A stretch of 32,000 nt of DNA from Thermodesulfobacterium commune DSM 2178 (GCF_000734015.1 NZ_CP008796.1:1380001-1412000), one strand, 5' to 3'. Counted from the stretch's first letter, positions 810-31,793 are shown. The notes: a model not told the origin generated them from the sequence alone. Numbers and translations are program-made.

Positions 810-813
810 GCCT

Positions 814-1785: not shown

Positions 1786-1788
1786 GGT

Positions 1789-3238: not shown

Positions 3239-3249
3239 AGGTGAAACAA

Positions 3250-3648: not shown

Positions 3649-3650
3649 AA

Positions 3651-6511: not shown

Positions 6512-6525
6512 AAGGTGGTAAGGAT

Positions 6526-7901: not shown

Positions 7902-7916
7902 GGAAGGGGACTACCT

Positions 7917-8393
7917 ATGCTAAAGTTAGCAGGGTGGCTTTTAACCAACTTGTTTAAAAAACCTTTAACCATTGAATTTAAAGGGAAAAGCCTTAAAGCA
8001 GTAAGAGGTACTTATCGTGGTTATCCTACCCATAGAGGAGAAAGATGTGCAGCCTGCAGGCTTTGTATCTATGTATGTCCCTCTGATGCCATAAGGATAG
8101 AAGGAAGCCTTTTTATCCTCAACAAATGTAAGTGCACTGCTTGTAAAGACTGTGCTGATGCCTGTCCTTTTGGTGCCATGCAGTTTATCCCTCGACTTAT
8201 AGGTACAGCTATCTCTAAAAACGAGTACATGGAAATCACTGAGATAAAACTGGTAAAATGTGAAAACTGCGGCGAACCAATGCCTAAACCGGAACTTTTG
8301 TTAGGAAGACTATTAGGAAAACCTTCTAAAACCATACCTCCCTACCTTAGGCTTTGCCCTAAATGTAGAAGGCAATTCTTTAAACATACCTAA
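7917..8393 (+). CDS. 2x[4Fe-4S] ferredoxin subunit, NuoI/HycF/EchF/CooX-like, with an extra C-terminal CxxC-x28-CxxC tail
   Basis: It has CAACRLCIYVCP and CTACKDCADACP, plus C-terminal CENC...CPKC (nt 8259-8366). The SD is GGAAGGGGA at 7902-7910. Confidence 0.85.
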   Translation: MLKLAGWLLTNLFKKPLTIEFKGKSLKAVRGTYRGYPTHRGERCAACRLCIYVCPSDAIRIEGSLFILNKCKCTACKDCADACPFGAMQFIPRLIGTAISKNEYMEITEIKLVKCENCGEPMPKPELLLGRLLGKPSKTIPPYLRLCPKCRRQFFKHT

Positions 8394-8401
8394 ACTATTG
8401 C

Positions 8402-8441
8402 TTGGCAAGTTTTTATGTTTGCTTTATTATGTATTTATAAT
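8402..8441 (+). promoter_or_regulatory. Candidate sigma70-type promoter for the dsrMK-like pair
   Basis: TTGGCA (8402-8407), a 17 nt spacer, then TATTAT (8425-8430). A second TATAAT at 8436-8441 has no good -35. The element sits in the 99-nt AT-rich gap after the last hydrogenase gene. Confidence 0.4.
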
Positions 8442-8492
8442 TTACCTTGGTAGTATTTATAGAAAAGAAAATTCTATACTAAGGAGGGATAT

Positions 8493-9356
8493 ATGGGGAT
8501 GGTAGTTTTTACCTATGTAGCTTTTTTGGTTTGTGTAGTGGGAATAGCTTATAGATTTTATCTGTTTTATAAACTTCCCATAAACATCAGATGGGAGGTT
8601 TATCCAGTACCTCATGAACCAGGAGAAAAGAAAAAATACGGAGGTTCTTACTTAGAGGAGTTTGCTTGGTATGAAAGGAAACTTGAAAAAGACCATGTTG
8701 GAGAATGGGTTGAACCTTTAAAGGAGATTCTGTGGCTTGAGAGGGTTAAAACCTATAATCGTTATGGGCTGTGGATTTGGTCTTTTTGTCTGCACTGGGG
8801 TTTATGGTTGATGTTTTTGTTTGTGATTTTAATGCTAATAAACACAAAGATTTCTATACCTTTAGGGTTGATAAAAACTGTAGGAATTTTAGGATATGGG
8901 ATGGGAAGCTTAGGTGTTTTAGGACTGTTGGTCAAACGTACTATCCATCCAACCCTTAAACTTTACACCAGTCCGATAGATCGGGTTAACCTTTTACTTT
9001 TGTTGGCTTTATTTGTTACAGGCTTTTTGATGGTTGTTTCAGACGATGGGTTAAAACACGCCTTTTTTTACTTTAATGCTATTCTCTTTTTTGCTCCACA
9101 AGAAACTAAATTTGAAGGTATAGCTTTCTGGCATTTCTTTATATTTAATATATTTATACTATATCTTCCTTTTTCCAAATTTTTTCATGGTCCAGCCAAG
9201 TATCTTACTTACCACAAAATTTTATGGGATGACATGCCCCAGTCTAAAGGAAGTAAGATAGAAAAACTTATAGAAAGACAACTGGGCTACCAGGTAGGAT
9301 GGTCTGGCCCTCATGTAAAACCTGAAAAAACCTGGCTTGAAAACGCACAAAACTAA
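8493..9356 (+). CDS. Integral-membrane NarI-family b-type cytochrome, DsrM/HmeC-like
   Basis: The protein is polytopic. RWEVYPVPHE near the N-terminus and conserved His in the helices (CLHWGLW, WHFFIF, FFHGP) fit the DsrM/NarI family. A strong SD (AAGGAGGG) is present. The DsrK-like partner is directly downstream. Confidence 0.7.
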   Translation: MGMVVFTYVAFLVCVVGIAYRFYLFYKLPINIRWEVYPVPHEPGEKKKYGGSYLEEFAWYERKLEKDHVGEWVEPLKEILWLERVKTYNRYGLWIWSFCLHWGLWLMFLFVILMLINTKISIPLGLIKTVGILGYGMGSLGVLGLLVKRTIHPTLKLYTSPIDRVNLLLLLALFVTGFLMVVSDDGLKHAFFYFNAILFFAPQETKFEGIAFWHFFIFNIFILYLPFSKFFHGPAKYLTYHKILWDDMPQSKGSKIEKLIERQLGYQVGWSGPHVKPEKTWLENAQN

Positions 9357-9384
9357 ATCGATAAAACCAAAAAAGGAGGTTAAC

Positions 9385-11034
9385 ATGAGCCTTTGCAACT
9401 TTATAAGACAAGAGTTAGAAGAGAAAAACGAAGAAAGTAAGGTATGTTTTAAAGAACTTTCTAAACCTGGGAAGGAACCTCTGTTCAAATTAGAAGAAAA
9501 AGAAATGTTACAAATTCCTGGCATAGAAGAAGTTAAAGATCAAACCCCAGAAAACTGGTATCAAACCTATAATCTAAGTTTAGACGGCTACAGCATGTTT
9601 CCTCAACCAGATCCTATCTCTCAAGAGGAAAAAGCAGAAATAGTAAAGAGGTTTTTACACGGCCTTAAAAAGTTGCTTAGCCCAAAGTCTAACTGGACGT
9701 TTATAAGACCTCTTAAGCTTTCTTTAGAAAATTGTGTAAGGTGTAACACCTGTGCTGATGCTTGTCATCTATACTTAGCAAGTGGCCGTAAAGAGGTCTA
9801 CCGTCCTAACTTCAGGTCAGAAATATTAAGAAAGATCTACGAAAAACATTTTACTTTAACCGGCAAGCTGAATGCCTTGTTAGGAGAAGAAATAGACATT
9901 ACTTATGATCTCATAAGAAGGCTTTTTGAATTAGCTTATAGGTGTACTCTTTGTAGAAGGTGTGTTCTTTATTGCCCTATAGGAGTAGACAATGGGCTCA
10001 TAGCAAGAGAGCTTAGGAAACTTTTTAGTCAAGAATTAGGGTGGGCTCCTCCTGAGGTTCATCAAAAGGGAACAAGGCTTCATCTAAAGGCTGGTTCTTC
10101 AACTGGGATGAACCCTCAAGGTATTAAAGATACTATATCCTTTTTGGAAGAGGAAATAGCAGAAAAAACCGGCAAAAAAATCAAAATTCCTGTAGATAAA
10201 AAAGGGGCAGAGTATCTTTTTATACACAATGCTGGGGAGTACATTTCCTGGCCAGACCACATGGAGGCCTTTTTTATCTTATTTGATGCCGCAGGTATTA
10301 ACTATACCATAAGCAGTGAACCCTTGGGGTATGATGGAGTTAACTACGGTGCCTGGTATGACGATGTGGAACTGGCAAGAATTGCGGTAAATCATCTAAA
10401 GATAGCACATTCTTTAGGGGTAAAAAAGATCCTGGTTGGTGAATGTGGCCATGCACATAAGGTTTTCTGCGTAATACTGGATCGATTACTTCCTGCAAGT
10501 TCGCCTTTAGCTGAAATAAAAAGAGAAAGCTGCCTTCCTTTAGTTTGGGAAATAGTTAAAAGTGGAAAACTTAAACTTGACCCTTCTCGCAACGACTTTT
10601 ACTTTACTCTACATGACTCCTGCAACATAGTAAGACTTATGGGAATTGTAAAGCCTCAGAGAGAGGTTTTAAACAGGATAGTTCCTCCAGGACGGTTTAG
10701 AGAGATGAACCCCAATGGGGTTAAAAACTATTGCTGTGGAGGAGGAAGTGGGTTTGCTATCATGGGAAGTTTAAACTTTCCAACCTTTCGCAAAAAAGTA
10801 GGCATCAAAGTCAAACTTTGCCAGATAATGGAAACCTTTCAAGATGTCCTTAAAGAAGATAAAATAAAACTGGTAGTAGCAACCTGCTCTAACTGCAAGG
10901 GAACCATAAGGGAGATGGAGCATACTTATCACCTATTTGAAAAGTATAAAATAACCCATTGCGGACTGGTAGACCTGGTAGTAAATGCCATGGTAGACAT
11001 ACCCCCATTTTTAAATTTTGAAGAAATGTTGTAA
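9385..11034 (+). CDS. Cytoplasmic Fe-S / CCG-domain thiol:disulfide oxidoreductase subunit, DsrK/HmeD/HdrD-like
   Basis: It has CVRCNTCADACH and CTLCRRCVLYCP ferredoxin motifs after a ~110-aa N-terminal extension, as in DsrK. The C-terminal CCG domain shows NYCCGGGSG...CSNCKG. The ATG at 9385 follows AAGGAGG, and I reject the start at 9337 in the ORF track. Confidence 0.8.
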   Translation: MSLCNFIRQELEEKNEESKVCFKELSKPGKEPLFKLEEKEMLQIPGIEEVKDQTPENWYQTYNLSLDGYSMFPQPDPISQEEKAEIVKRFLHGLKKLLSPKSNWTFIRPLKLSLENCVRCNTCADACHLYLASGRKEVYRPNFRSEILRKIYEKHFTLTGKLNALLGEEIDITYDLIRRLFELAYRCTLCRRCVLYCPIGVDNGLIARELRKLFSQELGWAPPEVHQKGTRLHLKAGSSTGMNPQGIKDTISFLEEEIAEKTGKKIKIPVDKKGAEYLFIHNAGEYISWPDHMEAFFILFDAAGINYTISSEPLGYDGVNYGAWYDDVELARIAVNHLKIAHSLGVKKILVGECGHAHKVFCVILDRLLPASSPLAEIKRESCLPLVWEIVKSGKLKLDPSRNDFYFTLHDSCNIVRLMGIVKPQREVLNRIVPPGRFREMNPNGVKNYCCGGGSGFAIMGSLNFPTFRKKVGIKVKLCQIMETFQDVLKEDKIKLVVATCSNCKGTIREMEHTYHLFEKYKITHCGLVDLVVNAMVDIPPFLNFEEML

Positions 11035-12306: not shown

Positions 12307-12990
12307 TTACTTCACAGCCTGATATAAGGTTACTATACCAAAGGTTAAAGGACTATAGGTTACCTCTGAAAAACCTGAGGTTAAGAGCATTTCTCTTATA
12401 GCCTCAGGAGACGGGAAAGCCTTTATAGAATCGGCTAAATACATATAAGCCTCTTTGTCTCCGGTTAAAGCCCCTCCTAAAAGGGGCATATAATAACTCA
12501 GGTAAAAATCATAAAATCTTTGCACTAAAAAATTTTTAGGCCAAGAAAATTCAAGGATAATTAGCTTTCCTCCTGGTTTTAAAACCCTAAAAAACTCTTT
12601 TATAGCTTTTTCCTTGTTAGGTAGATTCCTTAACCCAAAGGCTATGCTAATCCCCCCAAAATGGTCGTTCTTGAAAGGTAGTTCCTCTGCATCTCCACAA
12701 ACAGGATAAATGTAGGTATCTTTTATTCTGGAGCTACCAAAGGCAAGCATCTCAAAGCTAAAGTCTAAGGCAAAGGTTTTAGCTAAATTACTCTTTCGAT
12801 AGACCTCTAAGGTTAGGGTAAAAGGTCCACAACAAAGGTCAAGCAGAGGAGGAGAGGCTTCAGCTAACAATAAAGCAACTTTACGTCTCCATAATCTGTC
12901 TTGACCTAAACTTCCTATAAGGTTTACCAGGTCATACCTTCGAACTATCCGGTCAAACTTGTTTTTAACAAAGTTTTTTTCAACCTTCAT
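12307..12990 (-). CDS. ubiE: Demethylmenaquinone / ubiquinone-family C-methyltransferase (UbiE/MenG)
   Basis: The N-terminal VKNKFDRIVRRYDLVNLIGSLGQDRLWRR is the UbiE/MenG signature region. The SAM-binding motif LLDLCCGP and the RVLKPGGKLIILEF motif are present. The gene lies at the end of an mqn gene run. Confidence 0.85.
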   Translation of the reverse strand: MKVEKNFVKNKFDRIVRRYDLVNLIGSLGQDRLWRRKVALLLAEASPPLLDLCCGPFTLTLEVYRKSNLAKTFALDFSFEMLAFGSSRIKDTYIYPVCGDAEELPFKNDHFGGISIAFGLRNLPNKEKAIKEFFRVLKPGGKLIILEFSWPKNFLVQRFYDFYLSYYMPLLGGALTGDKEAYMYLADSIKAFPSPEAIREMLLTSGFSEVTYSPLTFGIVTLYQAVK

Positions 12991-12999
12991 TTTTCACCC

Positions 13000-13830
13000 T
13001 TATCCTATGGGGAAAAAGTTGAGCTCAGGCATATAAGATATAAGTTTTTTCTTGTATAAAATCTCGCAAAAATATAGATATGCCCTTTGTTTTAACCCTG
13101 AAAAATCATACTCTAAATGGGTTAGATAGTTGTATACAAAATCCTTAGGGAGATGAAGATGGGAATGGGTTACCACCTCTTTTAAGTTCGAAAAAGCTTT
13201 AGCCCTGGCAGAATACAGATTTAAACAAAAATCAGCCAGTGCTTGTTTAAAGGATATAAACTCCTTTTTTAGAATAAACAAAGCAAAAACAAACGGAAAA
13301 TGCGTATATTTTAACCACAGTTCTGCAAGGTCAGTGATATCATACCTCTCATCTTTCTTATGCTGAAGGATTAAAGCCTCATCTCCTATAGCTAAATAGC
13401 CCTTTAATTCTTCTCTCTCTTGGTCTGAAAGAGCTCCCCAATTTTTAGAAAGTTCTACATACTTAGGTTTTACCCCTATAAACTCTTCAAGTAAAACCCT
13501 TAAAAGCCAAAAAGAACTTTCGGTCTCTGGGGTTATCCCTACGGGTTGCCCGTCAAGGTCTTGAAGGTCCTCTTTATGATAAAGCACTACACTTTTTACC
13601 TCTCCTACAGCACTTATCGATAGGTCTGGTAAAAGGTAAAATTCTTGAGGATTTTTAGCATAGACTATACTTGAACTTAAGCTTGCACACAAAACATTCT
13701 GTCTAAGAAGTTGATTAAGCTTCTTAGGAACCTCTAACATAAGTTCTATTCTTTGATTTTCCTTAGGAAGGTAAAAAAGTAAGGGGAGTGTGTTTATGTA
13801 AAGAGGAATCCCTATTTTTAGTTTATCCAT
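13000..13830 (-). CDS. mqnA: Chorismate dehydratase MqnA (futalosine pathway)
   Basis: The sequence is VitK2-biosynthesis-family-like: KIGIPLYINTLPLL, ISAVGEVKSVVLY and FPFVFALF. It lacks the SPCPND motif of MqnD. I prefer the start at ATG 13830, which overlaps the upstream gene as ATGGATAA. The 21-codon extension to 13893 in the ORF track lies inside the upstream gene. Confidence 0.75.
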   Translation of the reverse strand: MDKLKIGIPLYINTLPLLFYLPKENQRIELMLEVPKKLNQLLRQNVLCASLSSSIVYAKNPQEFYLLPDLSISAVGEVKSVVLYHKEDLQDLDGQPVGITPETESSFWLLRVLLEEFIGVKPKYVELSKNWGALSDQEREELKGYLAIGDEALILQHKKDERYDITDLAELWLKYTHFPFVFALFILKKEFISFKQALADFCLNLYSARAKAFSNLKEVVTHSHLHLPKDFVYNYLTHLEYDFSGLKQRAYLYFCEILYKKKLISYMPELNFFPIG

Positions 13831-15049
13831 AAATCCTATACTTAACCTCCTTGTTAGAGTTGATAAGAGATACCATCGTCTCCTGAGGGTCATCTATCAG
13901 GTAATCTAAAACCTCAACCACAAGAAGGTTAGGTAAGTATCCAGGGGCAATTGCGCCAAGGTTTTCATATCCCAGAATTTTGGCTCCGGTTAAAGTAGCC
14001 ATCTGAAGAAGGATTTCAGGAGATACTTCAGGAAAGGCTGAATAAAGGGTCTTCAACTCTTCCCAGATAGATAATGAGGTGTTACTAGCTAAACTATCTG
14101 TTCCTATACCTATCTCAAGACCTGACTTTAACAATAAAGGCAAGTTAGGAAGGCCTACCCCTGTAAAAAGATTACTTCTTGGACAAACACAAACCTTAGG
14201 TTTATAGGTTTTAAGAACCTCTAAGTCTTCTTCGTCTAATTGGACAACATGGACTAACAAAGTTTTTTCATCAAGAAGGTTTAAACTGGCTAAGTATTTT
14301 ACCGGGCTTATCCCAGGAGGAGAAAAGCTTTCGTTCCATTGGTTTCTTTCCTCTAACAAGTGTTTTACTGGACCATCGCCAGTCTTTAAAAACTCTACCT
14401 CTTCTTTAAACTCTGCACAATGGATACAAAAAACCTGATTTCTTTTTCTGGTGTAGGCTTTTATTGCCTGAAGAAGTAAAGGAGAAACAGTATAAGGGGC
14501 GTGAGCTGAATAGGTTAACTTAAACCTTGAGTCCAAATCTTGCTTATCAAGAGGTTGCAGCTTAACCCCTCCTTTAAAATTTATAATTTCTCGAAACACA
14601 TAACCATATAAAGGGCTTCCTTTAAGAAGGTCTAAAGTAAGCCCTGAATTTGTGACCTCTCCAACAAGCCCTATCCCCTCTTTCCATAACTCTGAAATCC
14701 CCAATTTTGCGCCTTCTTTTAACTCTATCAGAGTAGTTTCTTCCTTTAGTTTAATTACCTGTTTTACCCAGGTTATAAAATTTTCTGAAGGTTTGATCCT
14801 AAACCTAAAACTGGAGAGCTCAAGATGGGTATGAAGATTGGTTAAACAAGGAAGGATCACCGCTTCTTCAAAATCTATCAGCTTGGCTCCTACCGTTTCT
14901 TTAGACAGGGTTGAAAACTCCCCAACCCTAACAATCCTCCCTTCTCTAATCTCTACGGCCCCGTCTAAAATAGGGGGCAAGGCTACAGGAACCACCCATT
15001 TAGCCCGAAGTAAAAAATGATGGTAAGGAAGGACTTGAATTTCTTTCAT
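13823..15049 (-). CDS. Amidohydrolase-superfamily deaminase, probable aminodeoxyfutalosine deaminase (MTA/SAH-deaminase-like)
   Basis: The metal-binding motif LHTHLELS is present, along with later His/Asp motifs (YSAHAPYT, IHCAE, GTDSLASN). It sits between mqnA and an MqnE/C-family radical SAM gene. The specific substrate is inferred from context only. Confidence 0.6.
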   Translation of the reverse strand: MKEIQVLPYHHFLLRAKWVVPVALPPILDGAVEIREGRIVRVGEFSTLSKETVGAKLIDFEEAVILPCLTNLHTHLELSSFRFRIKPSENFITWVKQVIKLKEETTLIELKEGAKLGISELWKEGIGLVGEVTNSGLTLDLLKGSPLYGYVFREIINFKGGVKLQPLDKQDLDSRFKLTYSAHAPYTVSPLLLQAIKAYTRKRNQVFCIHCAEFKEEVEFLKTGDGPVKHLLEERNQWNESFSPPGISPVKYLASLNLLDEKTLLVHVVQLDEEDLEVLKTYKPKVCVCPRSNLFTGVGLPNLPLLLKSGLEIGIGTDSLASNTSLSIWEELKTLYSAFPEVSPEILLQMATLTGAKILGYENLGAIAPGYLPNLLVVEVLDYLIDDPQETMVSLINSNKEVKYRIYG

Positions 15050-15051
15050 GC

Positions 15052-16113
15052 TTATTCTAAAAGGGTATAATCCATCCTTCTTCTTTTAGGAATATAGCCT
15101 GCAGATGAGATATGATGTCTGATTTCTTCTTCACTCATCCTATGAGAAACCCCGGCAGCAGCTACCACGTTTTCTTCTATCATGGTGGAACCAAAATCAT
15201 TACCCCCAAATTCAAGAGCAATTTGAGCGATATGAGGCCCTTGAGTAACCCAAGAAACCTGGATGTTTTTAACGTTATCAAGCACTATACGAGAGATAGC
15301 TAACACCTTTAAATAATAGGCAGACCCTGCCTTTATCAGGTGGTTTAACCCTGTATTTTTAGGCTGAAAAGTCCAGGGAATAAACGCGGTAAAACCTCCT
15401 GTTTTGTCTTGAAGGGATCGTATCTTCAAAAGATGGTCTATAATCTCCTCCTGGGTCTCGATATGTCCAAACATCATGGTCGCGGTGGTTTTAAGTCCAA
15501 GGTTATGAGCCACCTCCATCACCTTTAACCATTCCTCTGTGGTAGCCTTGTTCGGAGAGATAAGGCGTCTTACCCTATCTGAAAGAATCTCTGCCCCACC
15601 CCCAGGAATAGAATCAAGTCCTGCTTTGATTAACCTTTCCAAAACCTCTTCTATAGACAACCCAAATCGTTTACTGAAAAACACTATCTCAGGAGGAGAA
15701 AAACCATGAACATGCACTTGAGGAAAGTTGGTTTTTATAAAACGCAGCATGTCTTCATAAAAAGAAAAAGGTAGGTCAGGATGAAGCCCTCCTTGCAAAA
15801 GAATTTGATACCCACCTAAGCTTAAGGTTTCTTCTATCTTTTTCCCCAACTCTTCAAAAGAAAGCACATACCCATCTTTTGAGCCTGGAGGTTTATAATA
15901 GGCACAAAACTTACATCCTGAAACACATACATTGGTATAGTTGATGTTTCTATCAACCACATAGGTAACCACCCGTTCAGGGTTAAGTCTAAACCTAACC
16001 TCTCGGGCTAACCATCCAATTTCTTGAAGAGGGAATTTAAAAAGTTCTAAAGCCTCTTCTTTATTTAGTCTGATGCCTTCTATTACCTTTCTTACTACCG
16101 CATCCTTTATCAT
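15052..16113 (-). CDS. Radical SAM enzyme of the MqnE/MqnC family (aminofutalosine synthase or cyclic dehypoxanthinyl-futalosine synthase)
   Basis: It has the CxxxCxxC motif in NINYTNVCVSGCKFCAYY, plus GGYQILLQGGLHP and FIPWTFQP. I cannot separate MqnE from MqnC by eye. The context (mqnA plus deaminase, which are the early steps) favours MqnE. Confidence 0.75.
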   Translation of the reverse strand: MIKDAVVRKVIEGIRLNKEEALELFKFPLQEIGWLAREVRFRLNPERVVTYVVDRNINYTNVCVSGCKFCAYYKPPGSKDGYVLSFEELGKKIEETLSLGGYQILLQGGLHPDLPFSFYEDMLRFIKTNFPQVHVHGFSPPEIVFFSKRFGLSIEEVLERLIKAGLDSIPGGGAEILSDRVRRLISPNKATTEEWLKVMEVAHNLGLKTTATMMFGHIETQEEIIDHLLKIRSLQDKTGGFTAFIPWTFQPKNTGLNHLIKAGSAYYLKVLAISRIVLDNVKNIQVSWVTQGPHIAQIALEFGGNDFGSTMIEENVVAAAGVSHRMSEEEIRHHISSAGYIPKRRRMDYTLLE

Positions 16114-16633: not shown

Positions 16634-17521
16634 CTACTTAAAAAACATTATCAGACAAACCCCTGTTAACATCAAACCTGCTGCTACCAGCCTTAATCCA
16701 AAATAAGATTCCTTAAAAAAGAAATAACCTAAAACCACCGAAAAAAGGATGCTTGTTCTTTTAAGGGCTATCATATAAGCAGTTTCAAGCTGACTTAAGG
16801 CTATCATATGACAATAACACATGAGAGCCTGAGTAAGGCCTACCAAAAATATGCCTTTGATTTGGGTTTTTAGAAAAGAGCCTACCTCTATTTGATAAAA
16901 AACCTTAACTACAAGTCCTGCAGAAATCCCAAGCAAGGTAAAATAAAAAGAAGAAAACCACAAAGGGTCTGTCAGAAGAAGGCCCTTTTTCCCAAGCACA
17001 GACGTGATAGAATATATAAGAGCTACTTGTAGTAAAAGAAAGCTTCCCTTTTCCTTTTTGATGGCTTTTATAGGCTCTAACCACCCTAATCTGGCAGAAG
17101 GAAAATTGATCACATAGCTACCAGCTACCACCAGTAAAATCCCCATAGCACCTTCCAAAGATACCCTTTCTCCAAGCAAAAAATATCCTGTAAGGATGAT
17201 AAAAACCGGGGTAAAAGAAAGAAAAGGTACAGAAACAGAAAGGGGAGAAACCTTTATTCCTTTCATATAAAGAAAGGTAGCTAAAGTTTCTAAACCAAGC
17301 AAAATACCTACTACCACCATAAACTGAGGGGAAAAATATCCTACCCCTACACCTTTAAAAAAGGTAAGATACAAAAAAAGAGGCAAAAGGAAAGGTAAAC
17401 TTCCTACAGTCCTTGCAAAAACCATATAAGAAGTTCCTTTATCAGAAAAATATTTCTTATTTAAAGCATCGCTTAAAGCTACCAAGAACCCGGCAAGGAG
17501 AGCAAAGATAAATCCTATCAT
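16634..17521 (-). CDS. EamA/DMT-superfamily transporter (substrate unknown)
   Basis: It has about 10 hydrophobic helices in two similar halves. This is a family-level call only. Confidence 0.65.
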   Translation of the reverse strand: MIGFIFALLAGFLVALSDALNKKYFSDKGTSYMVFARTVGSLPFLLPLFLYLTFFKGVGVGYFSPQFMVVVGILLGLETLATFLYMKGIKVSPLSVSVPFLSFTPVFIILTGYFLLGERVSLEGAMGILLVVAGSYVINFPSARLGWLEPIKAIKKEKGSFLLLQVALIYSITSVLGKKGLLLTDPLWFSSFYFTLLGISAGLVVKVFYQIEVGSFLKTQIKGIFLVGLTQALMCYCHMIALSQLETAYMIALKRTSILFSVVLGYFFFKESYFGLRLVAAGLMLTGVCLIMFFK

Positions 17522-17533
17522 AAAGTGCCCAAC

Positions 17534-18184
17534 TTAAAGCCCTTTCAGAGGGCAGGGATCACATAAAGGGGAGTTCTTTTTGCAAAAGTTTTTTCCACAG
17601 GCTACCAAAAGCGCATGGTACTCATTAAAAAGCTGTGGGTCTGGAGGGAGATTTTCCATAAAAAGGGTTTGAATTTCGTCATAGGTAGTTTCTTCAGGAA
17701 TAAGAAAATGTCGGTTTAAGATCCTATAGGTATAGGTGTCAACCACAAAGATAGGAAGGTTGCCTCCATATAAAAGAATGCTGTCTACCGTCTCTTTGCC
17801 TAAACCTTTTATGTTCAAAAGCTCTGACCTTAAGTGTGAAAGAGGCTTTTTAAACATAAGAGCAAGGTCGCCTTGATAGTTTATCATCAAAAATTCTACA
17901 AAGGCTTTAAGCCTTTTAGCTTTTAAGTTGTAAAAACCGCTTGGTTTGATAAGTTCAGCCAATTCCTCTACAGGAAGCTGATAAAGGGCCGGAGGACTAA
18001 GCAGCCCTTTTTGTTTTAGGTTGCTAATGGCTTTTTCTACGTTTTTCCAAGAAGCGTTCTGGGTAAGAATAGCTCCCACACAAACTTCAAAAGGGGTCTC
18101 AGCAGGCCACCAGTTTTGAGGCCCAAAAAACTCAAAAAGCCGCTGATAAATCTCTTGTAATACCTCTGGTATCTTTCTGGTCAT
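17534..18184 (-). CDS. Endonuclease III-related HhH-GPD DNA glycosylase-like protein (COG2231-like)
   Basis: ILTQNASWKNVEKAI is present. The helix-hairpin-helix IKGLGKETVDSILLY is followed by PIFVVDTYTYRI, which contains the candidate catalytic Asp. A four-Cys C-terminal cluster reads CGKNFCKKNSPLCDPC. The residue aligned with Nth Lys120 appears to be Glu, which would suggest a monofunctional enzyme. That alignment is from memory. Confidence 0.7.
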   Translation of the reverse strand: MTRKIPEVLQEIYQRLFEFFGPQNWWPAETPFEVCVGAILTQNASWKNVEKAISNLKQKGLLSPPALYQLPVEELAELIKPSGFYNLKAKRLKAFVEFLMINYQGDLALMFKKPLSHLRSELLNIKGLGKETVDSILLYGGNLPIFVVDTYTYRILNRHFLIPEETTYDEIQTLFMENLPPDPQLFNEYHALLVACGKNFCKKNSPLCDPCPLKGL

Positions 18185-20502
18185 ACCTCTAAACTTACCA
18201 CCTCCGTACCCCAGGGAAGGTCAAATACCCAAAATCCCTTAGCAAGTAATTTTTCTCTTATCTGGTCTGCTTCTGCAAAATTTCCTTCTTTTCTGGCTTC
18301 ATCTCTTAACCGCACCAACCTAAGTACTTCCTCATCCATCACTTTTTTAGGAAACCTTAAAACCTTTAACACCTTGTTAAGAGTTTGAAGATTTTCAAAC
18401 ACCTTTTCTTTAAACTCAACACTAATACCTTGCTTTAGATAGGGATAGAGTTTTTTCAAAAAAGAGATAAGTTCTGAGATAACCATAGGGGTGTTTAAAT
18501 CCTCTTTTAAGGCCTTTTCCCAACTTTGGCCAAAATTTTCTAAAATAGACCAAGTAGAGGGATCTTCTTTGTCCTTTCTTGCAGAAGCCTCTACCAAACA
18601 AAGATGCTGGTCAATCTTTTGCAGTATTTTTGCACTTTCCTCAAGTCCTTTCCAACTAAAATTAAAGGGATTTCGGTAATGGGTTCTTAAGAAGTAAAAC
18701 CTTAGTTCTCTTCCGTTAAATCCTTTTGCCTTAATGTCTTCGACAGTAATCCTATTTTCTGAAGAAAGCTTTTTCCCCTGATAAAAAACTATCCCGGTGT
18801 GAAGCCAGTAACGAGCAACTTCCTTTCCTGTAATTGCCTTTAAAACCGCCCTGGTGTTTTCATGATGAGGGAAAAGAAGGTCTATTCCACTTGTAAAGAA
18901 ATCTATCTCCTCTCCTAAATATTTGAGGATTAAAGCAGCACAGTGGATATGCCAGGTAGGTCTGACTTTACCGATGTGTGTGTCTACAAAATATCCTTCT
19001 TTTAACTCAAGAATATGCACTCTTTTAAGTAAGGCAAAGTCAAAGGGTTCTTCTTTATCATATTCTTCAACGTCTATGGTCGCTCCAGGTTTTAAACGAG
19101 AAAGATCAACCTTAGAAAGCTTCCCGTAATCCTCAAGCCTGGAAATATCAAAATAAACACTCCCATATTTTACGTAAGCTTTATCTTTCTCAACCACCTT
19201 GAAAGCCAGGTCAGCCATTTCTGAAAGATGTTGGCTTACTTTAGGATAAAGGTCTGCCTTGCTAAGGTTTAAAAACTCAACGTCTTGATAAAACTCCTCC
19301 TCTACTTTTCTGGTTATCTCCTGTAAGAGTTTTTTTTCTTCTAAAGCTCTTTTTATGGTCTTATCATCAAAATCGGTAAGATTAATCAGATGTTTCACTT
19401 GATAACCTTTAATCCTCAAATACTCTTTTAGCACGTCTGCGGTAATAAGTCTTCTATAAAGTCCGATGTGAGGACGAAGATTTAAAGTAGGACCGCAGGT
19501 ATATATCCTAATCTCAGAAGAACTTAGAGGAAAAAAGGGTTCTCTTTTTTCAGAAAGGGTATTAAAAACGATAAGATTTGTCTCTTCTCTTTTTTTGTCT
19601 TTTACCTCAAAAGACCAAAGAGGGGTAGAAAGATAACGCTCTCCCCCATCTGGGAAAATAACCACTATCAAACCTTGGTCTAAAGTTTCTGCCAGCTTTA
19701 AAGCTCCTGCCAAAGCTGCCCCTGAACTTATTCCGACAAAGATTCCTTCTTCCCGAGCAAGCCATCTTGCCCAGTAAAAAGCCTCTTCATCTTCTACGTT
19801 GATTACTCTCTCAAGGAGTTTTTTATTATAAATACTCGGAGGATAAGACTCTTTCATGTTCTTTAAGCCTTGGATTTTATGCTTTGGATAAGGTTCGATC
19901 CCTACTACTTTAAAAGGTAGATTGTGGTCTTTGGCAAATCGAGCTATTCCCATGGCTGTTCCTGTAGTTCCAAGACCACATACCACATGGGTGACCTTGC
20001 CTTCAGTGTCTCTCCAGATCTCTGGGCCTGTAGTATGATAGTGACTTTTCCAGTTAGCCTCGTTGTTAAACTGGTCTGGGCAAAAATATTTGTCAGGGTC
20101 TTTCCTCAAAAGTTCATATACTGCCTCCATAGCTCCGTCAGTACCTTTTTCTGCGGGAGTAAGAAGGATCTGAGCCCCAAAGGCCTGCATGATTTTTCTT
20201 CTTTCTATAGAGGCTGATTCAGACATAGCAATCATACATCTGTACCCTTTAACCGCGCAAACTAAAGAAAGGCCTATTCCTGTGTTTCCGCTTGATGCCT
20301 CTATGACTATCTTATCTTTAGTAAGAAGTCCTTTTTTCTCTGCATCTTCTATCATAAAAAGGGCAGGACGATCCTTAATAGATCCTCCTGGGTTTTGACT
20401 TTCGATTTTTCCCCAAATTTCCACCGAAGGCTTGACTTTTAGCTTGGATAGTTTAATTATTGGGGTATTACCTATTTTTTGCAAAACATTATGAAAGCGC
20501 AT
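18181..20502 (-). CDS. Fusion protein: N-terminal PLP-dependent cysteine synthase (CysK/CysM-like, aa 1-~296) and C-terminal full-length cysteinyl-tRNA synthetase homologue (aa ~308-773) with non-canonical HIGH/KMSKS motifs
   Basis: The CysK part has IGNTPIIKL, GGSIKDR (PLP Lys), SSGNTGIGLS and GISSGAA. The CysRS part has IYTCGPT..PHIGLYRR, NLTDFDDKTIKRA, PTWHIHCAA, LFPHHEN, ARYWLHTG..GKKLSSEN, and the C-terminal RDEARKEGNFAEADQIREKL. It is one uninterrupted 773-codon ORF. The SD GAGGGG lies 8 nt before the ATG at 20502. Confidence 0.85.
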   Translation of the reverse strand: MRFHNVLQKIGNTPIIKLSKLKVKPSVEIWGKIESQNPGGSIKDRPALFMIEDAEKKGLLTKDKIVIEASSGNTGIGLSLVCAVKGYRCMIAMSESASIERRKIMQAFGAQILLTPAEKGTDGAMEAVYELLRKDPDKYFCPDQFNNEANWKSHYHTTGPEIWRDTEGKVTHVVCGLGTTGTAMGIARFAKDHNLPFKVVGIEPYPKHKIQGLKNMKESYPPSIYNKKLLERVINVEDEEAFYWARWLAREEGIFVGISSGAALAGALKLAETLDQGLIVVIFPDGGERYLSTPLWSFEVKDKKREETNLIVFNTLSEKREPFFPLSSSEIRIYTCGPTLNLRPHIGLYRRLITADVLKEYLRIKGYQVKHLINLTDFDDKTIKRALEEKKLLQEITRKVEEEFYQDVEFLNLSKADLYPKVSQHLSEMADLAFKVVEKDKAYVKYGSVYFDISRLEDYGKLSKVDLSRLKPGATIDVEEYDKEEPFDFALLKRVHILELKEGYFVDTHIGKVRPTWHIHCAALILKYLGEEIDFFTSGIDLLFPHHENTRAVLKAITGKEVARYWLHTGIVFYQGKKLSSENRITVEDIKAKGFNGRELRFYFLRTHYRNPFNFSWKGLEESAKILQKIDQHLCLVEASARKDKEDPSTWSILENFGQSWEKALKEDLNTPMVISELISFLKKLYPYLKQGISVEFKEKVFENLQTLNKVLKVLRFPKKVMDEEVLRLVRLRDEARKEGNFAEADQIREKLLAKGFWVFDLPWGTEVVSLEV
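20432..20460 (+). promoter_or_regulatory. Candidate sigma70-type promoter for the L,D-transpeptidase gene, located inside the cysK-cysS coding region
   Basis: TTGACT (20432-20437), a 17 nt spacer, then AATTAT (20455-20460). I see no SD before the ATG at 20491. Confidence 0.3.
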
Positions 20503-21420
20503 AAATTTTTCCCCTCAACATTAATTTTTTTATTTTACCTCTTATTATCATCTTTCCAAGCTTTGGCCGCCTCTCTTTTACAGTCTATCCCTATAATTCC
20601 TGACAAACATATTTATCTTAAAAATCAGACCTATACCATAAAGGAAGGTGACACCTTAGTTGATTTAGCGGTGACCTTTGAAGTAGGATATCAACATCTG
20701 GTACTCGCAAACCCTGGGGTTGACCCTTGGCTTCCTAAAACCAACCAGACCATAATCATTCCTTATCAGGTCTTAGTCCCTCAAGAATTTATTCTCAAAT
20801 CTCAAGAACCTTACATCTTAGTAAACCTTCCAGAGATGCGACTATATTTTTTTAATCCACCTTTTATGTTCATAGCTCCCATAGGTATTGGAGACGAGGG
20901 AAAACTCCCTCCTTTAGACATCTACTTTATCAAAAGAAAAAAAGAAAAACCATACTGGTATCCTCCTCCCTCTATCAAAGCTGAGGACCCAGATCTTCCT
21001 GATGTAGTACCTCCTGGACCTGAAAACCCCATGGGAGAATACGCCCTTTATTTATCAAAAGGACTTTATGCCATCCACGGAACCAACAAAATCTACAGCA
21101 TCGGTCGAAGAAGCACCCATGGGTGCATTAGGATGTATCCTCAACATATCAAATTCTTATACGAAACCGTACCTATAGGTACCAAAGTTTTTATAGTTTA
21201 TGAACCTTATAAAATCGCCGTAGAAAAAAACAAAATCTATCTTCAAGCCTTTCCTGACATAGAAAATAAAATCAAAAACCCTCTGGTTTATATCTTAAAA
21301 AAGCTAGACCAACTCTTAGGTGAAAAAGACTACAAGATAGACCTTTTAAAACTTGAAAAACAGTTTGAAAACCCTGACGGACTTGTCCATCAAATAGGAG
21401 AGGTTAAAATCTCTAAGTAG
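20491..21420 (+). CDS. Secreted L,D-transpeptidase with an N-terminal LysM domain (YkuD family)
   Basis: A signal peptide (MKAHKFFPSTLIFLFYLLLSSFQALA) is present. A LysM-like segment reads YTIKEGDTLVDLAVTFEVGYQHLVLANPGVD. The YkuD catalytic motif is HGTNKIYSIGRRSTHGCIRM. I prefer the ATG at 20491 over the TTG at 20479. Confidence 0.88.
   Translation: MKAHKFFPSTLIFLFYLLLSSFQALAASLLQSIPIIPDKHIYLKNQTYTIKEGDTLVDLAVTFEVGYQHLVLANPGVDPWLPKTNQTIIIPYQVLVPQEFILKSQEPYILVNLPEMRLYFFNPPFMFIAPIGIGDEGKLPPLDIYFIKRKKEKPYWYPPPSIKAEDPDLPDVVPPGPENPMGEYALYLSKGLYAIHGTNKIYSIGRRSTHGCIRMYPQHIKFLYETVPIGTKVFIVYEPYKIAVEKNKIYLQAFPDIENKIKNPLVYILKKLDQLLGEKDYKIDLLKLEKQFENPDGLVHQIGEVKISK
20532..20559 (-). promoter_or_regulatory. 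Candidate sigma70-type promoter for the cysK-cysS fusion operon, located inside the ldt coding region
   Basis: On the minus strand: TTGGAA (20559-20554), a 16 nt spacer, then TAAAAT (20537-20532). This predicts a TSS near 20525 and a ~23-nt leader containing GAGGGG. Confidence 0.35.
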
Positions 21421-30920: not shown

Positions 30921-30994
30921 GCCCCTGTAGCTCAACAGGATAGAGCAGCGGCCTTCTAAGCCGTAGGTTGGGGGTTCGAGTCCCTCCGGGGGCG
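30921..30994 (+). tRNA. tRNA-Arg (anticodon TCT); CCA is not encoded
   Basis: Cloverleaf folded by hand. The acceptor stem is GCCCCTG/CGGGGGC. The D arm is GCTC-AACAGGAT-AGAGC. The anticodon arm is GCGGC-CTTCTAA-GCCGT, with TCT at positions 34-36. The variable loop is AGGTT, the T arm is GGGGG-TTCGAGT-CCCTC, and the discriminator is G. It is followed by CTTTTTTTATTTT. Confidence 0.93.
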
Positions 30995-31134
30995 CTTTTT
31001 TTATTTTAAAAAAATCTTTCAGTTTAAACTAAACAAAACCTAATCTATTTTCTACCAACGCCTTCATTCTATAAACGATTCCTCTTGACCTAAAAAATAT
31101 TGATATCTATCCTCTTTAACCCCCATATATGGCC

Positions 31135-31508: not shown

Positions 31509-31520
31509 GTTAGGGAGAGC

Positions 31521-31767: not shown

Positions 31768-31793
31768 CTAAAAACCTCGAGGGGGGTATATCT

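What the first reader, a model, noticed from the sequence alone, without database searches (positions are those of the whole stretch)
18181..20502. Cysteine synthase fused to a full-length CysRS homologue with degenerate class-I signature motifs (HIGL, KLSSE)
Seen in sequence: this is one uninterrupted 773-codon ORF. Residues 1-~296 form a complete PLP-dependent CysK/CysM fold (IGNTPIIKL, GGSIKDR, SSGNTGIGLS, GISSGAA). Residues ~308-773 are collinear with bacterial CysRS from its first residues to the C-terminal anticodon-side helix (LIVFNTLSEKREPFFPL, IYTCGPT, NLTDFDDKTIKRA, PTWHIHCAA, LFPHHEN, ARYWLHTG, RDEARKEGNFAEADQIREKL).

The catalytic signatures deviate. HIGH reads HIGL (nt 19459-19470). 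KMSKS reads KLSSE (nt 18757-18771), so the second Lys is lost. If my from-memory alignment to E. coli CysS is right, the Zn ligand Glu238 (HHENE) is Thr here (HHENT). The Cys28, Cys209 and His234 equivalents are kept.

Established knowledge: CysRS paralogues have been recruited as ATP-dependent cysteine ligases (MshC in mycothiol synthesis). CysRS has also been reported to have a PLP-linked cysteine persulfide synthase activity involving the KIIK/KMSKS lysines.

Inference: the fusion could channel newly made cysteine or persulfide into tRNA charging. It could instead feed a non-tRNA cysteine ligation, such as a low-molecular-weight thiol or sulfur-carrier pathway. It could also carry out persulfide chemistry suited to a sulfur-metabolising thermophile. 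I am not aware of a described CysK-CysRS fusion.
Basis: partly seen in the sequence, partly recalled or inferred. Interest (0 to 1): 0.75.

Follow-up and report, generated by a model that had tools for sequence, protein, structure and literature searches.

The report
Cysteine synthase fused to altered CysRS
This Thermodesulfobacterium gene really does join a working-looking cysteine-making enzyme to a full-length copy of the enzyme that loads cysteine onto tRNA, but that copy keeps its cysteine and tRNA binding sites while lacking the textbook ATP-handling residues. It belongs to a large family for which I found no published description, and it probably does something other than ordinary tRNA charging.

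Summary
Window 18181-20502 (-) is one 773-codon gene encoding a CysM-type cysteine synthase (residues 1-296), a disordered linker of about 11 residues, and a full-length CysRS-derived module.

It is not an artefact. The 120 best database hits are all this fusion, and more turned up in a later search, mostly from Thermodesulfobacteriota. A sister clade carries the same two parts as adjacent, translationally coupled genes. The closest canonical relatives include archaeal (mostly DPANN-labelled) CysRS genes that also sit directly behind a closely related cysM-like gene.

Across the bacterial clade the zinc/cysteine pocket and every acceptor-, stem-contact- and anticodon-binding invariant of CysRS are kept. 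The ATP and transition-state residues are replaced stepwise (H/N40, G226, K269; in this lineage also H224, E208, E238). Some members have no HIGH or KMSKS motif left.

My best reading (confidence 0.45) is a CysM-coupled pseudo- or neo-synthetase that binds cysteine and tRNACys but no longer performs textbook aminoacylation, most likely coupling cysteine synthesis to tRNACys status. An atypical but active "make-and-load" CysRS remains a serious rival (0.25).

The decisive check could not be run: whether T. commune has a second, canonical cysS. I found no paper describing this family.

The parts
18181..20502 (-). Whole gene: 773-codon CysM-CysRS-like fusion ORF, stop codon included
   Evidence: It is 99% identical to T. 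commune WP_333570687.1, whose 90% cluster includes AIH04531.1 of strain DSM 2178.
20511..20516 (-). Ribosome-binding site GAGGGG, 8 nt upstream of the ATG
   Evidence: Read directly from the sequence.
19615..20502 (-). CysM-type PLP-dependent cysteine synthase domain (residues 1-296). The PLP lysine K43 lies at nt 20374-20376.
   Evidence: PALP E 8.6e-75. TIGR01136 scores 366.5, above its cut-off of 344. The best solved structure is E. coli CysM 2bht, E 7.9e-79, aligned without a gap through the CysM-specific loop. K43, S71-G72-N73-T74, the G178/T179/G181/T182 loop and S259 are invariant in 60 fusions.
19582..19614 (-). Flexible inter-domain linker (residues 297-307)
   Evidence: In the AlphaFold2 model pLDDT is below 50 for residues 291-300 and pTM is 0.62 although mean pLDDT is 90.6. 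There is no consensus residue in this stretch.
18628..19581 (-). CysRS-derived Rossmann-fold catalytic domain with its CP insertion (residues 308-625)
   Evidence: tRNA-synt_1e E 4.1e-79. Alignments to 8qhp and 1li5. Site-by-site comparison with 149 canonical CysRS.
19459..19470 (-). HIGL in place of HIGH/HIGN (residues 345-348)
   Evidence: The fourth position is N or H in all 149 canonical sequences. It is L, F, I or V in all 61 sequences of the Thermodesulfobacterium/Caldimicrobium clade.
18757..18771 (-). KLSSE, a remnant of the KMSKS loop with a 2-residue deletion and no second lysine (residues 578-582)
18853..19497 (-). Span holding the zinc/cysteine pocket: C336 (nt 19495-19497), W517-H518-I519-H520-C521 (nt 18940-18954), H546 (nt 18865-18867) and T550 in place of Glu238 (nt 18853-18855). 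It also holds F536-T537-S538-G539 in place of HGGG.
   Evidence: C, W, H, C and H are invariant. In this clade E238 is T and E208 is H in 61 of 61 sequences, and H224 is F or Y in 60 of 61. G226 is S across almost the whole family.
18184..18627 (-). Stem-contact/helical (DALR-like) region and C-terminal anticodon-binding domain (residues 626-773)
   Evidence: Weak DALR_2 and CysS_C Pfam hits. The equivalents of E. coli R423, D436, R439, G446 and D451 are kept in at least 93% of fusions. The AF2 model is confident here.
17534..18184 (-). Downstream HhH-GPD (endonuclease III-like) gene overlapping the fusion's stop by 4 bp. Probably co-transcribed; no functional link is shown.
   Evidence: The same adjacency occurs in Thermodesulfobacterium sp. 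TA1 and Thermosulfurimonas marina but not in more distant fusion loci.

Best explanation
The gene encodes a real two-module protein from a family I could not find described.

Shown:
- The N-terminal module is an intact CysM-type cysteine synthase.
- The C-terminal module is a complete CysRS derivative. It still has the zinc-thiolate cysteine pocket and all conserved residues that hold the acceptor end, the stem and the GCA anticodon of tRNACys.
- The residues that canonical CysRS uses to bind ATP and stabilise the adenylation transition state have been replaced by a different set that is itself conserved.

Inferred: the module binds cysteine and tRNACys (free or cysteinylated) but no longer performs textbook ATP-dependent charging. 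It works as a pseudo- or neo-synthetase partner of CysM and ties cysteine synthesis to the charging state of tRNACys. The logic resembles HisZ with HisG, or the HisRS-like domain of GCN2.

Inferred consequence: ordinary Cys-tRNACys formation would then be done by a separate CysRS elsewhere in the genome.

History (inferred from trees and shared substitutions): the pair descends from a cysM-cysS module whose archaeal members still have canonical motifs. The ATP site was remodelled stepwise in bacteria, and furthest in Thermodesulfobacterium and Caldimicrobium.
For: 1. Both parts are always coupled. They are fused in all 120 best hits, with more fusions. In the sister clade they are adjacent genes with a 4-bp gap or overlap (L007-L009).

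2. Of 74 sites that are at least 90% conserved in 149 canonical CysRS, those of the Zn/Cys pocket, the CP domain, the stem-contact fold and the anticodon domain are kept. The family-wide replacements are at V32, Y33, position 40, T115, W184, G201, S210, G226, Q241 and K269.

3. Members with no HIGH or KMSKS left (P0095, P0118, P0120, P0155, P0507) keep nearly all of these sites: the CP (YGKDF), stem-contact (RHYD) and anticodon-domain (RDRGD) residues are intact, and the Zn/Cys pocket (CWHCHE, GTTD) is intact in P0095, P0118 and P0507, with one or two changes in P0120 and P0155. The conserved function therefore needs cysteine and tRNA binding, not the canonical ATP machinery.

4. The new states are conserved, which is remodelling rather than decay. 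S226 is about 95-98%; T550 and H520 are 61/61 in this clade. The gene evolves at a housekeeping rate: 85.6% identity to strain TA1 against 75-93% for its neighbours.

5. There is a stepwise series from archaeal operon-coupled canonical CysRS, which shares W184x and G201V with the bacterial clade, to this protein.

6. The CysM catalytic residues are invariant.

7. AF2 models both modules confidently, joined by a flexible tether.
Against: I could not show that T. commune has a second CysRS. No tool gave access to the whole genome, and the neighbourhoods I examined contain none.

The protein passes the NCBIfam cysS equivalog cut-off, though only just, and NCBI names it cysteine--tRNA ligase.

H345, G347, K578 (the first KMSKS lysine) and the D229 equivalent remain conserved in this clade, which hints that a nucleotide is still bound.

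KMSRS is strictly conserved in the split-gene clade, as expected if that loop still works there.

From established knowledge: some active class-I synthetases lack the second lysine, for example eukaryotic TyrRS (KMSSS) and ArgRS.

Every named genus of class Thermodesulfobacteria among the hits carries the gene, which would be trivially explained if it were the only CysRS. No regulation has been measured.
Confidence: 0.45

Rival explanations
1. Active 'make-and-load' enzyme. The C-terminal module is still a working CysRS, possibly the only one in the cell, with an unusual, compensated ATP site. It charges tRNACys with cysteine handed over from the tethered CysM domain.
For: The archaeal sister group couples the same CysM type to a canonical-motif CysRS, and a Nanoarchaeota MAG fuses the two. 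Charging is therefore the ancestral role of the module.

All tRNA- and cysteine-binding residues are kept, as are H345, G347, K578 and the D229 equivalent. TIGR00435 is passed.

Lineages that lost a basic residue at position 269 more often carry Arg or Lys within 3 residues upstream of HIGH (62/98 against 15/120). This recalls the relocated lysine of ArgRS.

The gene evolves at a housekeeping rate. In T. marina it lies near ispD and ispF, which I recall from memory as a common cysS neighbourhood.
Against: Position 40, G226 and K269 are invariant in 149 canonical CysRS, yet they vary between genera here. Some family members have lost HIGH and KMSKS altogether.

This lineage has also lost H224, E208 and E238 and two residues of the loop.

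The putative compensating Arg is absent in 36 sequences that also lack K/R269. The association is also confounded by phylogeny, since it rests on essentially one clade.
Confidence: 0.25
2. New chemistry on a thiol amino acid or on tRNA-bound substrate. One version has the CysRS-like module present the 3' end of tRNACys to the CysM site, so that Ser- or phosphoseryl-tRNACys is converted to Cys-tRNACys. Another has it handle a modified CysM product such as S-sulfocysteine, cysteine persulfide or selenocysteine. A third has it use another adenylyl donor such as APS.
For: The acceptor-end, amino-acid and anticodon sites are invariant even where the ATP motifs are gone.

In this clade two invariant glutamates near the zinc are replaced by His and Thr in all 61 sequences, which makes the pocket less acidic.

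The N-domain is the CysM type. From established knowledge, CysM enzymes accept thiosulfate and macromolecular nucleophiles.

Thermodesulfobacteria and delta-proteobacteria are among the groups reported to carry tRNASec-like selC* tRNACys species (PMC5389517).

A ThiF-family gene directly follows one split pair (L009).
Against: There is no direct evidence. No tRNA gene or sulfur-carrier gene is linked to the fusions. From established knowledge, CysK/CysM enzymes bind the free carboxylate of their substrate. The SepRS surveys that I read report no SepRS in Thermodesulfobacteria.
Confidence: 0.17
3. MshC-like ATP-dependent ligase that attaches cysteine to a non-tRNA acceptor, for example in synthesis of a low-molecular-weight thiol.
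For: It is a CysRS paralogue with altered motifs, and it hits the MshC model weakly.
Against: The MshC model scores 139.9 against a cut-off of 485.1. The anticodon-binding domain and its invariants are retained. From memory, MshC lacks that domain: the MshC structures (3c8z, 8hfm) are about 413 residues long and align only to the first 322 residues of the CysRS-like module as queried. The ATP motifs that an MshC-type ligase would need are precisely the ones lost here.
Confidence: 0.03
4. Sequencing or assembly artefact, or a decaying pseudogene, that joins two separate genes.
For: None.
Against: The same fusion is found in independent complete genomes and in hundreds of metagenomic contigs. 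The frame is intact, both halves are strongly conserved and the AF2 model is confident.
Confidence: 0.01

Closest known systems
Canonical cysteinyl-tRNA synthetase (E. coli CysS, PDB 1LI5/1U0B; archaeal-looking 8QHP)
   Same: The domain order is the same over the full length. The Cys/Cys/His zinc ligands, W205, T68 and D69 are kept. So are the CP-domain, stem-contact and anticodon-domain invariants.
   Different: HIGH is HIGL. KMSKS is KLS--SE. HGGG is FTSG. E238 is T and E208 is H. There are ten family-wide replacements at otherwise invariant sites. The module is always coupled to CysM.
CysM / O-acetylserine sulfhydrylase B (E. coli and Salmonella, PDB 2BHT/2JC3)
   Same: It is the best solved-structure match (E 7.9e-79). 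The PLP lysine, Asn loop, phosphate loop and the CysM-type 3-residue loop insert are all present.
   Different: It scores below the CysM equivalog cut-off (366 against 394). The loop reads GLKNMKESY rather than GIRRWPTEY. It is covalently joined to a CysRS-like module.
Archaeal cysM-cysS operons and the Nanoarchaeota PALP-CysRS fusion (found here: P0518/L010-L016 and P0127)
   Same: The same CysM type (57-61% identical to this protein's N-domain) sits directly upstream of, or is fused to, a CysRS. The core group shares the otherwise unique W184x and G201V changes.
   Different: Their CysRS keeps HIGN, G226, Q241, S210 and KMSKS, so it looks catalytically ordinary. The Nanoarchaeota fusion is not sister to the bacterial clade.
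HisZ (HisRS paralogue regulating HisG) and the HisRS-like domain of GCN2
   Same: In both, a synthetase-derived module has lost catalytic residues, keeps ligand (amino acid or tRNA) binding, and is physically coupled to an enzyme that controls supply of the cognate amino acid. This comparison comes from established knowledge; it is an analogy and says nothing about homology.
   Different: They belong to a different synthetase class and family. To my knowledge HisZ lacks the anticodon-binding domain, whereas this module keeps it. No regulation has been shown here.
MshC (mycothiol cysteine ligase)
   Same: It is a CysRS paralogue with the same catalytic fold and a zinc site.
   Different: MshC keeps the ATP chemistry and lacks tRNA binding. 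This protein shows the reverse pattern.
SepRS-SepCysE-SepCysS transsulfursome
   Same: A tRNACys-binding synthetase is physically linked to a PLP enzyme that makes the cysteine moiety (PMC5688128 and PMC5424206).
   Different: The proteins are unrelated: a class II synthetase and a fold-type I PLP enzyme. There is no evidence here for a tRNA-bound intermediate.

Membership tests
Cysteine synthase CysK/CysM (NCBIfam TIGR01136 cysKM subfamily) | Profile score at or above the curated cut-off | tested here: met
   366.5 bits against a cut-off of 344.15. PALP E 8.6e-75.
Cysteine synthase CysK/CysM (NCBIfam TIGR01136 cysKM subfamily) | PLP-binding lysine (SxKDR), SGNTG substrate loop, GTxGT phosphate loop and the serine facing the pyridine nitrogen | tested here: met
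   K43, S71-G72-N73-T74, G178/T179/G181/T182 and S259 are invariant in 60 aligned fusions and align with E. coli CysM.
CysM equivalog (TIGR01138 / NF008735) | Profile score at or above the equivalog cut-off | tested here: not met
   366.1 against 394.2, and 329 against 413. It is CysM-like, with the CysM loop insert present, but falls outside the equivalog.
Cysteine synthase CysK/CysM | O-acetylserine or O-phosphoserine sulfhydrylase activity | not testable with these tools
   Needs an enzyme assay.
Cysteine--tRNA ligase (CysRS, TIGR00435 equivalog) | Profile score at or above the curated cut-off | tested here: met
   355.1 against 340, a marginal pass.
Cysteine--tRNA ligase (CysRS) | HIGH signature, H-x-G-[H/N] | tested here: not met
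   HIGL here. The fourth position is N or H in 149/149 canonical sequences and L, F, I or V in 61/61 of this clade.
Cysteine--tRNA ligase (CysRS) | KMSKS loop with the second lysine | tested here: not met
   KLS--SE with a 2-residue deletion. K269 is kept in only 2-3% of family members.
Cysteine--tRNA ligase (CysRS) | Zinc ligands Cys28, Cys209 and His234, plus Trp205 | tested here: met
   C336, C521, H546 and W517; these residues are invariant in the family.
Cysteine--tRNA ligase (CysRS) | Fourth zinc ligand Glu238 and the invariant HxGG (H224, G226) of the nucleotide site | tested here: not met
   T550 in place of E238, F536 in place of H224 and S538 in place of G226.
Cysteine--tRNA ligase (CysRS) | Anticodon-binding domain and tRNA-contact invariants | tested here: met
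   The equivalents of R423, D436, R439, G446, D451, R290, H297, Y298, Y152, G153, K175, D180 and F181 are all kept. Pfam CysS_C and DALR_2 hits fall below their gathering scores.
Cysteine--tRNA ligase (CysRS) | Forms Cys-tRNACys, or is the cell's CysRS | not testable with these tools
   No whole-genome access and no assay. Other loci and searches did not reveal a second cysS.
MshC (TIGR03447) | Profile score at or above the cut-off, and no anticodon-binding domain | tested here: not met
   139.9 against 485.1. The anticodon domain is present.
Pseudo-synthetase regulators (HisZ/GCN2-like logic; functional analogy only) | Loss of catalytic signature residues with retention of the ligand-binding sites | tested here: met
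Pseudo-synthetase regulators (HisZ/GCN2-like logic; functional analogy only) | Obligate physical or genetic coupling to the cognate biosynthetic enzyme | tested here: met
   Fusion or adjacent, translationally coupled genes.
Pseudo-synthetase regulators (HisZ/GCN2-like logic; functional analogy only) | Ligand-dependent control of the partner enzyme, with a separate functional synthetase present | not testable with these tools
   Needs enzyme kinetics with and without tRNACys and cysteine, and the complete genome.
   The K73 and K76 equivalents (DDKTIKRA) and K266 are present here. K269 is absent, and K76 is variable in the family and in canonical CysRS.

The most novel reading that the evidence does not exclude
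The module is a bacterial tRNA-dependent cysteine machine that does not use SepRS. The CysRS-derived half no longer activates cysteine. Instead it docks tRNACys by its anticodon and acceptor end and presents an aminoacylated 3' end to the tethered CysM site. That 3' end might be Ser or phosphoserine on a tRNASec-like selC* tRNACys. CysM then makes the cysteinyl (or persulfide or selenocysteinyl) moiety on the tRNA, and the zinc pocket receives the product. This would be a convergent counterpart of SepCysS or SelA.
Probability: 0.07. Interest if true: 0.95.

Novelty: new variant of a known kind. Interest (0 to 1): 0.7.

Why it matters
CysRS is treated as a universal, single-copy enzyme with invariant HIGH and KMSKS motifs, and it serves as a phylogenetic marker. 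Annotation pipelines label this protein 'cysteine--tRNA ligase'.

This is a large, conserved clade, and every named genus of class Thermodesulfobacteria among the hits carries it. It keeps cysteine and tRNACys recognition while dispensing with the canonical ATP machinery, and it is always joined to a cysteine synthase.

If it is a pseudo-synthetase, it would be a protein-based link between tRNA charging status and synthesis of the cognate amino acid. That is a bacterial analogue of HisZ or GCN2 logic, built from a class-I enzyme. It would also mean that marker-gene and annotation pipelines mislabel it.

If it still charges tRNA, it would show that a class-I synthetase can work without the second KMSKS lysine, the last HIGH residue and a zinc ligand. 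It would also be a natural case of an amino-acid synthesis enzyme fused to the matching tRNA-charging enzyme. Either outcome can be tested directly with one purified protein.

Tried and rejected
1. Finding a second, canonical cysS in the same genomes.
- The neighbourhoods of six fusion loci hold none.
- The canonical seed P0134, chosen from the exhaustive representative search, led only to DPANN and Bathyarchaeia CysRS.
- Supplements of genome and proteome papers were not held or were uninformative.
- The question therefore stays open.

2. Literature. Seven of the eight full-text searches targeted the fusion directly, and I read several aaRS and SepRS surveys. None described a CysK/CysM-CysRS fusion. 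The eighth search looked for genome papers with gene tables.

3. A CysE-like C-terminal tail that could plug the CysM active site. Rejected, because the C-termini are not conserved.

4. The small ORF after the split pairs as a ThiS/CysO-type sulfur carrier. Rejected: there is no C-terminal Gly-Gly and the sequences look spurious.

5. A basic residue upstream of HIGH that compensates for the lost K269. The statistical association is real, but the residue is not conserved within the clade and the association is confounded by phylogeny. I keep it only as a lead.

6. A conserved gene neighbourhood or a linked tRNA. There is none beyond close relatives.

7. A regulatory RNA upstream of the gene. 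None was found.

8. Relaxed selection or decay. Rejected, because the gene evolves at a housekeeping rate.

Full report
**What is in the sequence**

Window 18181-20502 on the minus strand is a single 773-codon ORF with an ATG start. A GAGGGG ribosome-binding site lies 8 nt upstream. Pfam finds a PLP-dependent PALP domain at residues 7-285 (E 8.6e-75) and the class-I CysRS catalytic domain at 325-623 (E 4.1e-79). It also gives sub-threshold DALR_2 and CysS_C (anticodon-binding) hits at 661-759.

NCBIfam places the N-terminal half in the cysKM subfamily (366.5 bits, cut-off 344). The C-terminal half passes the cysS equivalog only marginally (355.1, cut-off 340). The MshC model scores 140 against a cut-off of 485.

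HMMER alignments to solved CysRS structures run collinearly from the first residues of the C-terminal half to its end. They show HIGL opposite HIGH/HLGH, a shortened KLS--SE opposite KMSKS, and HHENT opposite HHENE. The protein is 99% identical to Thermodesulfobacterium commune WP_333570687.1, whose 90% cluster also holds AIH04531.1 of strain DSM 2178.

**Not an artefact, and not rare**

All 120 best hits in a 5.8-billion-protein search are PALP plus CysRS fusions of about 770 residues, at 48-99% identity. They come from Thermodesulfobacterium, Caldimicrobium, Thermosulfurimonas, Thermodesulfatator, Thermosulfuriphilus, Dissulfurimicrobium, Ca. Desulfofervidaceae and unnamed Thermodesulfobacteriota or 'Deltaproteobacteria' MAGs. 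Several are from complete genomes. A later search found several dozen further fusion clusters.

An AlphaFold2 model built from 60 family members is confident for both halves (mean pLDDT 90.6). The linker is disordered (residues 291-300) and pTM is 0.62, so the picture is two well-folded modules on a flexible tether. Compared with strain TA1, the fusion is 85.6% identical, within the 75-93% range of its housekeeping neighbours. The CysRS-like catalytic part is 85% identical, about the same as LpxC or PyrC. It is under ordinary purifying selection.

**The N-terminal module**

The best solved relatives are E. coli and Salmonella CysM (2bht, E 7.9e-79). The alignment has no gap through the CysM-specific loop, whereas alignments to CysK enzymes need a 3-residue gap there. 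The PLP lysine K43, the SGNTG loop, the phosphate loop and S259 are invariant in 60 fusions. So is a family-specific loop, KIQGLKNMKESY. Nothing suggests that this half is inactive.

**The C-terminal module, site by site**

I aligned 123 family members with 149 CysRS that carry canonical motifs. E. coli CysS served as the ruler.

Seventy-four positions are at least 90% conserved in the canonical set. The fusions keep the following groups:
- the zinc and cysteine pocket (C28, G29, T31, T68, D69, W205, H206, C209, H234);
- the CP-domain residues (Y152, G153, K175, D180, F181, K185);
- the stem-contact residues (R290, H297, Y298, D349);
- the anticodon-domain residues (R423, D436, R439, G446, D451).

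The family-wide replacements are:
- V32 to L or A, and Y33 to H or N;
- position 40, the last residue of HIGH (N or H in 149/149 canonical sequences), usually to L, V, M, F or I;
- T115 to S, W184 to F, L or M, G201 to V, and S210 to A;
- G226 (149/149 canonical) to S;
- Q241 to I or V;
- K269 (149/149 canonical) to R or to a non-basic residue.

The Thermodesulfobacterium/Caldimicrobium clade adds G204T, E208H, H224F/Y, E238T, M267L and a two-residue deletion in the KMSKS loop. These new states are themselves conserved: T550 and H520 occur in 61 of 61 sequences. This is remodelling, not decay.

**The key family-level result**

Several members have no recognisable HIGH or KMSKS motif left:
- P0095 has DLGM and KKIHPRD;
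- P0118 has GLNM and a deleted loop;
- P0120 has TLGQ and KGKDQG;
- P0155 has QLGE;
- P0507 has DLSV.

All five keep the CP (YGKDF), stem-contact (RHYD) and anticodon-domain (RDRGD) invariants. P0095, P0118 and P0507 also keep the whole Zn/Cys pocket and the amino-acid contacts; P0120 (Ala for Glu238) and P0155 (Ser for Cys209, Asn for Thr68) each have one or two changes there. What selection preserves in this family is therefore binding of cysteine and of both ends of tRNACys. It does not preserve the canonical ATP and transition-state machinery.

**Evolutionary context**

An exhaustive search of 1.84 billion cluster representatives, followed by NJ trees, gives three results.

First, all motif-deviant CysRS-like proteins form one clade. 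This fused-plus-split clade is monophyletic in 100 of 100 bootstraps.

Second, nested within that clade is a group of 'solo' proteins of about 468 residues from Polyangia and 'Deltaproteobacteria' MAGs, with the motifs HxGL, HTSG and KMSRS. In all three loci I examined, a 305-307-residue cysM-like gene lies immediately upstream, separated by a 4-bp gap or overlap. The two parts are therefore always together, either fused or translationally coupled.

Third, the closest canonical relatives are archaeal-type HIGN CysRS from DPANN and Bathyarchaeia. Eight of 75 such loci have a cysM-like gene directly upstream. In a core group (P0518 and L011-L016) that partner is 57-61% identical to the T. commune CysM domain. 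In the best tree this core group is sister to the bacterial clade, though with only 45/100 bootstrap support. It shares the otherwise unique W184x and G201V substitutions while keeping HIGN, G226, Q241, S210 and KMSKS.

A Nanoarchaeota MAG carries an apparently independent PALP-CysRS fusion with canonical motifs, and another sequence fuses a hexapeptide-repeat, CysE-like domain to CysRS.

The picture is a stepwise series:
1. an archaeal cysM-cysS module with an ordinary-looking CysRS;
2. the bacterial clade with HxGL/N, HTSG and KMSRS;
3. Thermodesulfatator and Thermosulfurimonas with KMSFS and KMSVS;
4. Thermodesulfobacterium and Caldimicrobium with HIGL and KLS--SE plus four further active-site changes.

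The window's protein is the most derived form.

**Surroundings**

The fusion gene is solitary. Only close relatives share neighbours: a YkuD gene upstream, a 4-bp-overlapping HhH-GPD gene downstream, and then an EamA transporter. More distant fusions sit in unrelated contexts. No tRNA-Cys gene, sulfur-carrier gene, SAT gene or regulatory RNA is linked to it.

**Interpretation**

Shown:
- an intact CysM;
- a complete CysRS scaffold with the cysteine and tRNACys binding determinants;
- loss or replacement of canonical ATP-site residues;
- obligate coupling of the two parts;
- housekeeping-level constraint.

Inferred: the conserved job of the C-terminal module does not depend on textbook adenylation. 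I commit, at a confidence of 0.45, to a CysM-coupled pseudo- or neo-synthetase. In this reading the module binds cysteine and tRNACys or Cys-tRNACys and links cysteine synthesis to tRNACys status. A CysRS active site is already shaped to recognise its own product, so it could sense that product without ATP. HisZ with HisG, and the HisRS-like domain of GCN2, are the functional precedents. This reading requires a separate CysRS elsewhere in the genome.

The main rival (0.25) is an active, compensated 'make-and-load' CysRS. In its favour:
- the ancestral archaeal module looks like exactly that;
- H345, G347, K578 and the ribose-binding aspartate are conserved here;
- KMSRS is strictly conserved in the split clade;
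- basic residues appear upstream of HIGH where K/R269 is lost, although this association is confounded by phylogeny and is not universal;
- some active class-I enzymes lack the second lysine (established knowledge).

A third possibility (0.17) is new chemistry. It could be conversion on tRNA, handling of S-sulfocysteine, persulfide or selenocysteine, or use of another adenylyl donor. The replacement of two invariant glutamates by His and Thr next to the zinc points this way, as does the CysM-type partner.

MshC-like ligation (0.03) and an artefact (0.01) are disfavoured.

**What I could not do**

No tool reads a whole genome. I therefore could not test the decisive question of whether T. commune encodes a second, canonical cysS or SepRS/SepCysS. 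My attempts are listed under 'tried and rejected'.

Seven full-text searches aimed at the fusion, and several aaRS and cysteine-encoding surveys, describe no CysK/CysM-CysRS fusion. That library is incomplete, so this absence is not proof.

**Verdict**

It is the most derived member of a large CysM-coupled CysRS-like family that I could not find described. I rate it a new variant of a known kind: a synthetase paralogue coupled to its amino acid's biosynthetic enzyme. Interest is 0.7. Both outcomes would be informative, whether the module is a class-I pseudo-synthetase sensor or a synthetase that works without its signature residues. One genome scan plus a handful of assays would settle the question.

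Noticed in passing
window 31509-31778 (+): A cobalamin riboswitch aptamer (Rfam RF00174, 62.1 bits, full-length match) lies near the right end of the window, downstream of tRNA-Arg(TCT) at 30921-30995. I did not examine the gene it controls.
   Followed up: no
window 16634-18184 (-): An HhH-GPD (endonuclease III-like, with a C-terminal Cys cluster) gene overlaps the fusion's stop codon by 4 bp. An EamA-family transporter gene follows it; from memory, that family includes the E. coli cysteine/O-acetylserine exporter. Both genes also lie near the fusion in strain TA1 and in Thermosulfurimonas marina, though in T. marina the EamA gene is on the opposite strand, beyond a transposase. Neither is near more distant fusions.
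   Followed up: partly
L009 7430-8185 (+): In one metagenomic split cysM/CysRS-like pair, a ThiF/MoeB-family E1-like gene (with CxxC...CxxC) follows directly. This recalls the CysO/MoeZ/CysM sulfur-carrier pathway. It is absent from the other two split loci and from the fusion loci.
   Followed up: partly
P0127 (Nanoarchaeota MAG, 768 aa); P0193 (711 aa): These are other fusions of a cysteine-biosynthesis enzyme to CysRS. One is a PALP-CysRS with fully canonical HIGN/KMSKS that does not group with the bacterial clade. The other joins a hexapeptide-repeat (serine acetyltransferase-like) domain to a CysRS with HIGH/KMSKS.
   Followed up: partly
L010-L016, L046, L048, L073: In several archaeal MAGs (mostly DPANN-labelled, some labelled Methanosarcinales), a cysM-like gene sits directly upstream of a canonical cysS, within a few bases. 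This holds for 8 of 75 loci examined. The core group shares W184x and G201V with the bacterial family.
   Followed up: yes
window 20479-21420 (+): The YkuD (L,D-transpeptidase) ORF as listed starts at a TTG that overlaps the first 24 nt of the divergently oriented fusion gene. The true start is probably further downstream: in L002 the orthologue is called 11 residues shorter.
   Followed up: no
window 9-11034 (+): The left third of the window encodes pyruvate:ferredoxin oxidoreductase pieces, a membrane-bound Ech/Mbh-type [NiFe]-hydrogenase-like complex, and a NarI-like plus CCG-domain pair resembling DsrMK. A similar NarI-like/Fe-S pair lies near the fusion or pair in L001, L006 and L009. This may be coincidence.
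   Followed up: no
window 12307-16113 (-): A futalosine-pathway menaquinone cluster lies downstream of the fusion operon. It comprises UbiE, MqnD (VitK2_biosynth), an amidohydrolase and a CofH_C radical-SAM protein, next to a CobA/BtuR-type adenosyltransferase gene.
   Followed up: no
WP_068514450.1 (P0037, Caldimicrobium thiodismutans) and MAG entries: Public annotation of this family is inconsistent. Orthologues are named 'cysteine--tRNA ligase' in some records and 'cysteine synthase' in others. The family passes the cysS marker model TIGR00435 only marginally, which could affect single-copy marker counts.
   Followed up: no
L006 10768-10844 (+) and window 30921-30995 (+): A tRNA-Arg(TCT) gene lies 440 nt downstream of the fusion in a distant MAG, and about 10 kb away in this window. 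This is probably coincidence.
   Followed up: no
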